From Heptranchias perlo (lineage: Eukaryota): a DNA stretch of 64,000 nucleotides. Shown here piece after piece: positions 31,976-34,923 of the stretch. The DNA lies in contig NC_090331.1 in assembly GCF_035084215.1 (NCBI RefSeq), positions 72,664,001 through 72,728,000 on the forward strand, read 5' to 3'. Each line of letters starts with the position of its first letter. The first letter of the stretch is position 1. Position numbers and translations under genes: made by a program. The notes below the pieces were generated by a model, which did no database searches, was not told the DNA's origin, and worked only from the letters and a program-made list of their open reading frames with translations.

Positions 31976-33541
31976 GTAATGAGGAATAGAAGAAACGCTG
32001 CATCCTGTTGCAAACTGACCTCAAACATCCCATCAAATGGAAAAAAAACAAAAATCGGACTAACTTCAGAACACTGAACTTCAATTCACAAAGTGCTTTT
32101 ACCATGCACGTAGATATTTACAGAGTGCTTCTTACTGCCACTATGCCTCTCTGTGCTACTTTTAAGCCTATGCTGATGCTGCATTGAGATTATACCTGGA
32201 AGCCAGAGATGCCAGTGTTGCTTGGCTGAGCTGTGATATTGTGAACCTCTTGGCTCAGAGGTGGCTTTCATCTCAAGGTCTCTGAGTCCTGGGAGGGCTA
32301 TTAACAGGTTGCATTGCCACAGCAGGTGTGTGGACAGCCTGGTCCTGTATCCTGACACCTACATAAGTAGCCATAGTATCCATTTTGGATGCACTGATTG
32401 TTCTGGAGGCCTCTTTGTCGGTGGTGGGGGGGGGCGGGAAATGGGTGCAGATGCCCAAGATGCCACCATCGGCTAAAGGTAACACTGCATTATCTGACCA
32501 AAAAATATATGGGTTAATTAAGATCAGCCAGCATGAATTTGTGAAATGCAAGTCACATCTGATAAATTTAATTGAATTCTTTGAGGAAACAACAGAGTTT
32601 ATTACAAAGGAAATAGTGGATGCTGTTTATATGAATTTTCAAAAGCCCTTTGATAAAGTGCTCCACAGGATGTGCCTTGACCAAATTAAGGCACACGGCA
32701 TTAAAGGGAATGTGGTAGCATGGGTAGGAAGGACAGAAGACAGAGAATAGTGGTTGATGCTTGTTTTTGGACAGCACAGGTGTAAATAGTGATGGTCCCA
32801 GATATCAGTGTTCGGACCATTACTCTTCTCAATATAAGATATACATTAATAATCTGGATTTGGGTTTGGGACACAATATGAATATTTTCGGACAACACAA
32901 AAATAAGGGCCTGACTACAGTAGGAAAGTCACCTCATCAGTCCTCTCTCCTGCCCTGCCCTCCACTTGCGCCTCCTCTTGTGAGTTGTGAATCAGCCAGG
33001 CACCTTCCTCAACCTCACACTCTACATTCCCTGGACCACATCTGTCCTACTTCTCTCTTGGTAGCTTTGCAATCCTTGGCCAATGAGCAGAACATACTTA
33101 GGTAGATGATAGCAACCGCCAGAGCATTCGAAACAGGTCGCATGTGCCCAGACCACTTCTCTCCTGGTGCCAGGGCTTTGCTTGCTTAGTTTGTATGGTG
33201 TTTCTGCTGACAGTACTCTTTCTGAGGTGCACCTTGAATTGGAGTGAGCAGGACATTACTGTGCCCGTTGCTATTGTGCCCCCAGCTTGTTTTGTATGAG
33301 TGAGTGTTATGAAATGAGATAAATGTTCTCTGTATGCTATCTCTCCAGGGGTAAACGAGAGGAATATTACCTCAGACATCACTGTTGGGACCATTGCTCT
33401 TCTCAATATAATATATATTAATGATCTAGACTTGGGCTTTGGACACAATATGAAAATTTGCAGTCAACACAAAAATAGGGAGAAAGATTAGCTGTGAAGA
33501 GGACTGTAAGCGAAAACAGGAGGACATAGGTTAGTAGATTG

Positions 33542-33752
33542 TTGTGGAGATGCCGGTGATGGACTGGGGTGGACAAATGTAAGGAGTCTTACAACACCAG
33601 GTTATAGTCCAACAGCTTTATTTGAAATCACAAGCTTTCGGAGGCTTCCTCCTTTGTCGGGTGAGTCACCTGACGAAGGAGGAAGCCTCCGAAAGCTTGT
33701 GATTTCAAATAAAGCTGTTGGACTATAACCTGGTGTTGTAAGACTCCTTCCA
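33542..33752. mobile_element. Non-autonomous Penelope-like insertion made of two inverted pLTRs (169-bp palindrome) plus a 39-nt tail, 11-bp TSD
   Basis: Arms 33581-33664 and 33666-33749 (2 mismatches, 1-nt spacer); TSD TTAGTAGATTG at 33531-33541 and 33753-33763. Confidence 0.85.
33666..33702 (+). ncRNA. Minimal type I hammerhead ribozyme, intact core (mirror copy 33628-33664 on minus strand is mutated)
   Basis: TCAC CTGACGA A GGAGG AAG CCTCC GAAA GC TT GTGA; the mirror copy has CCGACAA in place of CTGACGA. Confidence 0.78.
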
Positions 33753-34923
33753 TTAGTAGATTGGGCAGATATATGTCAGATGAAGTTTAACACAGAGAAA
33801 TGTGGGATGATATATTTAAATAAATTTAGGAAGTACAGTGGAATCTGTCTTCTAAGACCATTTATTTTGCCATAGACATTCGGAATCTTCACCTTAACAC
33901 TGTACAGGTGGAAACGATTTTCAATCAAGACCTCTAAAGACAATTTTGTAAGTAAGATTCAGCCCACAAAGTTGTTCCCTGTCATTTTTTTTCCTTTACA
34001 TACAAAATTCTATTGTCTAAATTTATGTCCAAATACTGCTTCCTGGAACTAGTGAGGTCATTAATTCCAGGTAAAACAATTAGACACTATCATCCAGAAC
34101 CTGGTGCTGGTCACGTTCAGTAGGTGGTCTCCCATTGGAGGTTAATTATAACACAGAATATTGCAGTCGCATAAGATAGGTGATGTTTCATTATAAGTCT
34201 TAAAATACTGGTTCCATTGTGTACACTCAAACTTTCAAAGGAATACAGCAGCAGGGAGACTTAGGGATTCATAGACACAAATCTTTAAAAGTGGGTGCAA
34301 TATCTGGATGATATAAATAGGCGAATGGGGTACACATGCAAAGAGGGAATGATAAATCTGAAAAACTCATTGGTTGGGTTGCAATTAAAATGTTGTCTCC
34401 AGTTTTGGGCACCTTACTTTAGGAAAGATGTCAAGACCATGGAACGGTGCAGAAGACATTCACTAAGATGATATAAGCAATATGAGCTTTTAGTTCTGAG
34501 GAGAGACTAAAGAACCTGGGGCTATTTTAATTAGAGCAGAGAAGTTTAAGAGAACACCTCATAGGAGTCTTCAAAATCATATGGGGTTTTGATAAGTTAA
34601 ATAGGGGAAAGTTATTTCCATTGGCCAATGAGCCAGTTACTAAAGTCCATGAATTTAAAGATCATCACCAAAAGAAGGGAGGTTAGGAGAATGTTTTATT
34701 TTATTCAAAGGGACGTTGGAGTATGAGATGCCCATGTACAATCTCTGAAGATTGTGGTGATCAGATGACCTTCTCATGCAGGTCCAGCTCTAGGACATAA
34801 TAAAGGAAGATTCTCCTGGGTCTTCTCCTAGGCACACTGGATAGCCAATTGGGTGGGTTTCGTTACAAGTGTGCACTCTGACCCGCCGATTTTGCAATAT
34901 TTAATGTGCCCAGGCAATCCAAT

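What the first reader, a model, noticed from the sequence alone, without database searches (positions are those of the whole stretch)
33531..33763. 169-bp near-perfect palindrome built from two head-to-head hammerhead-bearing repeats, with an 11-bp TSD
Seen: 84-bp arms around a single central base (33665), a 39-nt extension on one side only, and TSD TTAGTAGATTG inside an old CR1. Each strand encodes one hammerhead motif. The only two arm mismatches both fall in the catalytic CUGANGA box of the minus-strand copy (CCGACAA), and the plus-strand copy is intact. Established: inverted pLTRs with a short tail are a Penelope integration signature. Inference: this is a complete, minimal non-coding ribozyme retroelement, and a likely cruciform or hairpin-RNA source.
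Basis: partly seen in the sequence, partly recalled or inferred. Interest (0 to 1): 0.7.

Follow-up and report, generated by a model that had tools for sequence, protein, structure and literature searches.

The report
Head-to-head Penelope retrotransposon stub, shark
The palindrome is real, but it is two short back-to-back copies of the ribozyme-bearing end of a very common shark jumping gene (a Penelope-like element), likely written in during one insertion and likely a dead by-product rather than a new self-spreading ribozyme element.

Summary
The palindrome, one-sided extension and 11-bp target duplication are real. The 11-mer is the host CR1's own RT codons, duplicated. Corrections: the arms are 89 nt, with a third mismatch outside the ribozyme, and the tail is 34 nt. 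The arm is the terminal repeat (pLTR) of a high-copy shark Penelope-like element. The window also holds a solo copy and a truncated copy with a GIY-YIG-type ORF. Inverted pLTR, tail, TSD and junction palindrome are published for this class (PMC3846280, PMC8557442). The hammerheads are minimal and dimer-dependent, sit on opposite strands, and folding one costs about 50-56 kcal/mol against the hairpin. The core mutations are not special to the palindrome: one is a CpG change, and the solo copy has two core hits too. Likely mechanism (inferred): both nicked target ends primed cDNA, both copies stopped near hammerhead stem I, and they were joined. This copy's own centre was not recovered in contigs. 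The scan noted this architecture many times before, here and in other genomes. Ordinary; low interest.

The parts
33531..33541 (.). Left copy of the 11-bp target-site duplication (host CR1 RT codons L-V-D-W)
33542..33575 (-). 34-nt Penelope 'tail', the 3' end of the minus-strand pLTR copy; 33 of 34 nt identical to the tail of the solo copy
   Evidence: 138 (X1) and 127 (X2) contigs leave the reference at 33543
33576..33664 (-). Left arm: 5'-truncated pLTR copy, 89 nt; two substitutions against the other copies (33659, 33655)
33628..33664 (-). Minimal type I hammerhead motif with mutated core (U4 to C; G8 to A, the latter a CpG transition)
33665..33665 (.). Unpaired centre base; on the minus strand it and the next base continue the element's own upstream sequence as seen in the solo copy
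33666..33754 (+). Right arm: 5'-truncated pLTR copy without tail, 89 nt, one substitution (33750); ends at the same ACATT position as the long copy; last 2 nt shared with the right TSD copy
33666..33702 (+). Minimal type I hammerhead motif, core intact: stem I 33666-33669/33699-33702, CUGACGA 33670-33676, extra A 33677, stem II 33678-33690, GAAA 33691-33694, palindromic AGCU 33694-33697, predicted cut after U33698
   Evidence: architecture as in PMC4209133 (passages)
33753..33763 (.). Right copy of the target-site duplication
32508..34659 (+). Decayed CR1-type LINE RT fragment that received the insertion
   Evidence: tblastn with the window's own ORF2 proteins
371..500 (-). Solo pLTR copy of the same family with tail, not palindromic, no TSD found; core changes G5 to A and G12 to A
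23463..24599 (-). 5'-truncated copy of a related ORF-bearing element: C-terminal 273 aa (CX4CXXC linker motif, VVY...YIG endonuclease motif), 3' region, and pLTR (88% identical) with intact hammerhead core, no tail

Best explanation
This is a short insertion of an endonuclease-bearing Penelope-like retrotransposon of sharks: two copies of the element's terminal repeat joined head to head inside an 11-bp target duplication, likely made in one event when both nicked target ends primed reverse transcription, and likely a dead by-product. Shown: the sequence anatomy, the duplication, the family link to an ORF-bearing element, and the very high copy number. Inferred steps: (1) the element's GIY-YIG enzyme cut the two strands 11 nt apart, leaving 3' ends; (2) the top-strand end primed cDNA at the far RT start site (tail tip), and the bottom-strand end primed at the near site (ACAUU, 2-nt match to the target), which gives one arm with a tail and one without; (3) both cDNAs stopped within 2 nt of each other at the start of hammerhead stem I, probably the RNA's 5' end or a strong stop; (4) the two ends were joined with at most 1 nt of overlap and filled in; (5) three later point mutations followed. 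The hammerheads are passengers and are predicted to be inactive here.
For: Both arms read as antisense cDNA running inward from the target ends. The arm ends match two recurring family ends: the tail tip (solo copy; 138 and 127 contigs leave at 33543) and ACATT (long copy; pieces or loose ends at 33754 and 33575-33577 in X2, X5, X6). For the anole element, two RT start sites bracket the tail, the enzyme cuts and extends both strands, prefers ATT, and does not need hammerhead cleavage (PMC11167929, parts 1-2 of 4 read); ATT lies at both junctions here. 106-113 contigs per DNA run of the main sample leave the reference at 33666 into mutually unlike sequence (agreement 0.41-0.42), so family 5' ends appear to gather at or just above stem I. 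Pieces crossing this centre differ among themselves by 0-2 gaps, and one in the other organism's run has 2 extra letters, as expected of separate joining events. The element's own upstream sequence (solo and long copies) holds no hairpin at this junction, and a DNA hairpin loop needs about 4-6 bases (PMC7999016 passage), so simple snap-back fits badly. Family link: P0001 is 95% identical to a shark RT-bearing protein, matches GIY-YIG clusters by features (0.96-0.97; PF01541 on 31-34% of members), and has CX4CXXC and VVY...YIG motifs. Hammerhead burial: forcing the fold costs 56 (plus) and 50 (minus) kcal/mol in the whole insert, but only 4 in an RNA starting at the centre.
Against: No genome was available, so copies were not catalogued. 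The exact centre and the right junction of this copy were not seen in listed contigs, and none of the centre-crossing pieces meets the 31-letters-each-side rule. 13 of the 15 listed head-to-head joints at other positions (109 more not shown) are symmetric within 10 nt (null P about 0.001), which two independent cDNAs would not give without a shared stop or local self-complementarity; this fits snap-back at least as well, or library fold-back chimeras (all 15 come from one sample, 14 of 15 have under 30 letters on the short side). One centre-crossing contig has depth 100 against 8-12 for the flanks, so some junctions are shared by several copies. 4 of 7 substitutions in the three closest arm copies hit the 12 core positions (P 0.008 uniform, 0.03-0.10 with CpG weighting), more than a pure-passenger reading expects. 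The RNA 5' end was not measured. Two-ended priming is not described in the PLE papers found.
Confidence: 0.65

Rival explanations
1. Same element and same dead-end product, but made by self-priming: one cDNA starts at the tail tip, folds back near stem I (or copies a palindromic junction already present in a master element's read-through RNA), copies itself, and is trimmed at ACATT by the endonuclease.
For: Self-priming is the published reading of head-to-head PLE junction palindromes (PMC3846280 discussion passage); the tail is ascribed to endonuclease resolution (PMC8557442 passage). 13 of 15 listed joints are near-symmetric; 6 of 15 centre within 1.5 nt of an AGCT palindrome, one lies at the AAGCTT and one at the stem II hairpin. 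A depth-100 centre contig fits an inherited junction.
Against: A 1-nt loop cannot be a snap-back primer, and the element's upstream sequence offers no pairing there. The tailless arm ends where the non-palindromic long copy also ends, which a second RT start explains directly.
Confidence: 0.22
2. A self-contained non-autonomous palindromic element: transcribed as a unit, mobilised by the Penelope protein, with one core silenced to regulate cleavage.
For: All cis parts are there (tail, pLTR, TSD). pLTRs alone sufficed for trans-mobilisation in a rotifer (PMC3846280 passage). One centre variant occurs at about 10 times flank depth. Core positions are hit more often than uniform chance.
Against: Centre variants differ among contigs and none listed matches this copy. 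One minimal hammerhead per strand cannot form the cis dimer these motifs need (PMC4209133, PMC6765202 passages), and the hairpin sequesters it. The solo copy has core changes too. Described animal retrozymes are head-to-tail tandems (bioRxiv 2026.07.22.740005, part 1 and passages).
Confidence: 0.08
3. Assembly or library fold-back artefact.
For: The exact centre was not among listed contig pieces; fold-back chimeras occur in sequencing libraries (own knowledge).
Against: The duplicated 11-mer of the host reading frame, three arm differences, the one-sided tail, an exact left-junction contig in two runs, and the match to a published architecture.
Confidence: 0.03

Closest known systems
Inverted-pLTR insertions of endonuclease-positive Penelope-like elements (Adineta vaga Pen2a/Pen2/Pen3a, PMC3846280; general scheme in PMC8557442; passages read)
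   Same: Inverted 5'-truncated copy adjoining the 5' end, head-to-head junction palindrome, 30-40-nt tail at one end only (31 there, 34 here), TSD of similar size (8-10 there, 11 here).
   Different: Here no ORF or direct pLTR lies between the two arms; both copies are cut down to about 90-125 nt. The passages read mention solo pLTRs but not this two-arm minimum.
Anole Poseidon element PAc in vitro (PMC11167929; parts 1-2 of 4 read)
   Same: Two RT start sites bracket the tail; ATT at the cut; both strands extended; hammerhead in the pLTR upstream of the RT starts.
   Different: PAc is Penelope/Poseidon clade, while the window's protein has the extra CX2-5CXXC linker of Neptune/Nematis. In the parts read, the paper does not explain inverted copies.
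Minimal type I hammerheads of metazoan PLEs (PMC4209133; passages)
   Same: Extra base between A9 and 10.1, G10.1-C11.1 pair, 4-5-bp helix I, palindromic 15.2-16.2, no helix III loop.
   Different: The motifs are thought to work as tandem dimers; here the two are on opposite strands.
Animal non-LTR retrozymes (bioRxiv 10.64898/2026.07.22.740005; part 1 of 5 and passages)
   Same: Non-coding, pLTR-derived, type I hammerhead, found also in the one chondrichthyan sampled.
   Different: Retrozymes are head-to-tail tandems with at least two same-strand hammerheads; this is one inverted pair.

Membership tests
Endonuclease-positive Penelope-like element insertion | [quoted passage not shown] | tested here: met
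   Arm 88% identical to the pLTR of the copy at 23463-24599; its ORF matches RVT_1-bearing proteins at 95% and GIY-YIG clusters. Pfam itself gave no GIY-YIG hit for P0001.
Endonuclease-positive Penelope-like element insertion | 30-40-nt tail at one end only | tested here: met
   34 nt, 33542-33575
Endonuclease-positive Penelope-like element insertion | Inverted 5'-truncated copy with head-to-head junction | tested here: met
Endonuclease-positive Penelope-like element insertion | Target-site duplication | tested here: met
   11 bp of host CR1 reading frame duplicated
Endonuclease-positive Penelope-like element insertion | Minimal type I hammerhead in the pLTR | tested here: met
   Motif and pairs by inspection; not detected by Rfam models
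Neptune/Nematis clade | CX2-5CXXC motif upstream of the GIY-YIG motif | tested here: met
   CHGNLCKTC at residue 135 of P0001; criterion from PMC8557442
Neptune/Nematis clade | Placement in the RT phylogeny | not tested
   No reference clade sequences were fetched
Non-LTR retrozyme | Head-to-tail tandem units with at least two same-strand hammerheads | tested here: not met
   One motif per strand; no tandem array at the site
Non-LTR retrozyme | Self-cleavage and circular RNA | not testable with these tools
   Only contigs were available; folding predicts burial of the motif
Independent non-autonomous palindromic family | Many dispersed copies with the same junction and shared variants | tested here: inconclusive
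   No genome; centre-crossing contigs differ, one at about 10 times flank depth, none identical to this copy among those listed

The most novel reading that the evidence does not exclude
These stubs record a two-ended integration route for Penelope-like elements: a dimeric enzyme primes cDNA from both cut strands at two fixed RNA start sites, and both copies run to the RNA's 5' end at hammerhead stem I. That would explain inverted pLTRs, the one-sided tail and junction palindromes with one mechanism, and thousands of shark copies make it testable by counting.
Probability: 0.45. Interest if true: 0.5.

Novelty: new member of a known kind. Interest (0 to 1): 0.2.

Why it matters
As a single locus it matters little: it is one intergenic scar among very many. 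As a class, such minimal insertions strip the Penelope integration product down to its ends, so their junctions can separate two-ended priming from self-priming, a step that the papers read call undefined (PMC8557442) or not yet validated (PMC11167929). An 89-bp near-perfect palindrome is also a possible cruciform or breakage site (PMC7999016 passages), and would give double-stranded RNA if transcribed; neither was shown.

Tried and rejected
No whole genome is held, so there is no copy count. Rfam: 0 matches at gathering threshold in the window; 13 sub-threshold matches at E up to 10, mostly microRNA-hairpin models, none a hammerhead, rejected as generic hairpin hits. An exact 27-nt family pattern found 0 loci in metagenome contigs. 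Look-up of earlier findings by sequence gave nothing. No RNA holder was listed; runs X6 and X7 are only guessed to be RNA and hold family sequence. X6 shows no cover over the outer flanks, which is no evidence on expression. The 40-41 contigs with the family base at 33659 were not counted as palindromes: copies carrying the G8-to-A change would be placed on the left arm too. The left/right depth ratio at that position is 0.03-0.05, which hints that G8-to-A is a common family variant, but summed depth is no copy number. No TSD longer than 4 nt was found for the solo or the long copy. A special role for the two core mismatches was considered and not adopted: P of at least 2 of 3 in the 7-nt box is 0.015 uniform and 0.04-0.11 with CpG weighting, and the box is also the part nearest the centre, where mismatches could merely stabilise a palindrome (the stabilising idea is own knowledge). 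The weak Pfam hits and 37 other than RVT_1 are below cut-off and were ignored. The paper on dimer cleavage by PLE hammerheads (PMC5785218) is not held and is cited only through a review. bioRxiv supplements were not seen and might list shark families.

Full report
OBSERVATION. The palindrome is at the stated place. Around G33665, 84 positions pair on each side, with mismatches only at 33659/33671 and 33655/33675, and it was the only long palindrome in a scan of the whole window. The insert folds at -171.4 kcal/mol with 0 of 200 shuffles as stable. TTAGTAGATTG stands at 33531-33541 and 33753-33763; an abutting repeat this long arose in 2 of 19,972 random flank pairs. The duplication is real: a CR1-type ORF2 from the window aligns to the left flank up to residue 724 and resumes at residue 727 exactly at 33753, so the 11-mer is the host's own L-V-D-W codons, present twice. 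Two corrections follow from aligning the other copies in the window. The three bases before the right repeat are family sequence with one substitution, so the arms are 89 nt with three mismatches and the last two bases are shared with the repeat. The one-sided tail is 34 nt, not 39.

IS IT AN ARTEFACT? No genome is held. Nine runs were listed, all as contigs; six were laid. In X1 and X2 a 184-nt contig matches 33382-33565 exactly, crossing the left junction with 24 letters on the element side, which is under the tool's 31-letter rule, and these runs may be the source sample. No listed piece carries this copy's exact centre or bridges the right junction; 28,190 and 5,551 pieces were not shown. 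The duplication, the arm differences and the one-sided tail argue against a fold-back artefact, but direct read proof of the centre is missing.

WHAT IT IS. The arm occurs twice more in the window. One is a solo copy with tail at 371-500 (95% identical). The other is the end of a 5'-truncated element at 23463-24599 (88% identical). That element carries a 273-aa open frame. Among 14 longer relatives, the best is a shark protein at 95% identity with an RVT_1 domain. The C-terminal part resembles GIY-YIG clusters (scores 0.96-0.97; PF01541 on 31-34% of members), although Pfam gave no GIY-YIG hit. It has CX4CXXC upstream of VVY...YIG, the linker that marks Neptune/Nematis elements (PMC8557442 passages); no tree was built. 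The family is very abundant: 12,744 and 12,375 contigs were laid on the 801-nt stretch in X1 and X2, nearly all on the element, while the outer unique flanks show depth 7-12. The architecture is published. PMC8557442 (passages) describes an inverted 5'-truncated copy and a 30-40-nt tail at one end. PMC3846280 (passages) describes inverted pLTRs, a 31-nt tail, TSDs of 8-10 bp and head-to-head junction palindromes. So this is such an insertion with everything but the ends missing.

THE HAMMERHEADS. The plus-strand motif has stem I (4 bp), CUGACGA, an extra A, stem II (5 bp), GAAA and a palindromic AGCU in place of helix III. This is the minimal PLE type of PMC4209133 (passages), where single motifs showed no cleavage and dimers little; a review says the same (PMC6765202 passages). 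Rfam models do not detect it. Here each strand has one motif, so no cis dimer can form. Forcing the fold costs 56 kcal/mol on the plus strand and 50 on the minus strand of the whole insert, but 4 in an RNA that starts at the centre. On the core mismatches: the arm's only two CpGs overlap the core, and G8-to-A is a CpG transition. With three mismatches, P of two in the 7-nt box is 0.015 uniform and 0.04-0.11 with CpG weighting. The solo copy also has G5-to-A and G12-to-A, so core damage is not peculiar to a palindrome arm. Against a pure-chance reading, 4 of 7 substitutions over the three copies hit the 12 core positions (P 0.008 to 0.10); this is unexplained and worth a genome-wide count.

HOW IT LIKELY AROSE (inferred). 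Read inward from each target end, both arms are antisense to the element's RNA, as cDNA primed on a 3' end that includes the duplicated 11-mer would be. The left one starts at the tail tip. The right one starts at ACATT, where the non-palindromic long copy also ends. Contigs mark both ends: 138 and 127 leave at 33543; a few end at 33754 or 33575-33577. In the anole element, two RT starts bracket the tail, both strands are cut and extended, ATT is preferred, and hammerhead cleavage is dispensable (PMC11167929, parts 1-2 of 4). Both arms stop at stem I. There, 106-113 contigs per DNA run of the main sample leave into unlike sequence, so 5' ends seem to gather at that point; a transcription start there is a guess (an internal promoter is shown for Drosophila Penelope, PMC2377424 passages). 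Of the 8 pieces listed per run, 3 in X1, 5 in X3, 1 in X5 and none in X7 cross the centre by 25 letters or so on the short side or less; they differ by gaps and substitutions and none meets the 31-letter rule. A 1-nt loop cannot prime a snap-back (loops need about 4-6 bases, PMC7999016 passage), and the element's upstream sequence offers no stem there. I therefore favour two cDNAs joined end to end. I first leaned to fold-back; earlier scan notes suggested the two-primer reading, and I then checked it against the junction letters and ends here. Against it: 13 of 15 listed joints elsewhere in the arm are symmetric within 10 nt (null P about 0.001), and 6 of 15 centre on an AGCT. This fits self-priming, the published view, or annealing of two cDNAs, or library chimeras: all 15 are from one sample, 14 have under 30 letters on the short side, and 109 joints were not shown. 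One centre contig at depth 100 shows that some junctions are shared among copies.

CONTEXT. The site is intergenic, in a dead CR1 between two gamma-crystallin genes. No transcription was shown or excluded.

NOVELTY. Six paper searches were answered. They found the general architecture in print. The listings and passages read showed no account of ORF-less two-arm stubs in sharks and no twin-priming model for PLEs, none of the 15 listed papers holds both 'pLTR' and 'twin priming'. The library lacks most subscription papers, and bioRxiv supplements were not seen. The scan itself has noted this structure often: 18 findings in at least 5 genomes by words, and 80 notes fitting the look-up in this genome, 8 shown. 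These are unchecked notes and not support. Verdict: new member of a known kind, interest 0.2; the mechanistic reading would merit about 0.5 if shown.

Noticed in passing
window 1485-39082, minus strand: Tandem cluster of five gamma-crystallin-type genes (exon pairs 39082-38840/37068-36811, 30445-30203/27178-26921, 25171-24929/22951-22694, 5882-5640/5314-5057, 2329-2087/1742-1485; Pfam Crystall). The palindrome lies between the first two; the long Penelope copy sits between the two exons of the third, on the same strand.
   Followed up: partly
window 371-500 and 33576-33754: 4 of 7 substitutions in the three closest pLTR arm copies fall in the 12 hammerhead core positions (P 0.008 uniform, 0.03-0.10 with CpG weighting); 3 of the solo copy's 4 changes are G to A on the sense strand.
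   Followed up: partly
contigs laid on window 33250-34050: Other head-to-head joints of the family cluster near short self-complementary motifs: AGCT at 33713-33716, AAGCTT at 33693-33698 and the stem II hairpin. They may be genomic or library chimeras.
   Followed up: partly
window 33543, loose ends: The loose-end consensus next to the tail tip reads, on the element's strand, into an ATG, hinting that the ORF starts just after the tail (low agreement, 0.42).
   Followed up: no
window 32799-32908 and 33373-33480: Internal duplication of an RT segment in the host CR1, about 573 nt apart, 83-89% identical.
   Followed up: no
window 43044-47998: 51-bp GC-rich tandem array, 97 copies, strong strand skew.
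   Followed up: no
window 52280-64000: 30-bp satellite, at least 390 copies, 92% matches, running to the window end.
   Followed up: no
window 8649-9923 (+): Open DDE_Tnp_4 transposase frame (Harbinger-type by recall), with a GC-rich neighbour region to about 12000.
   Followed up: no
window 14684-17623 (-), 27602-29212 (+), 39813-41552 (+), 50184-51557 (+): LINE RT frames; the first is an open 979-aa frame with endonuclease and RT domains.
   Followed up: partly
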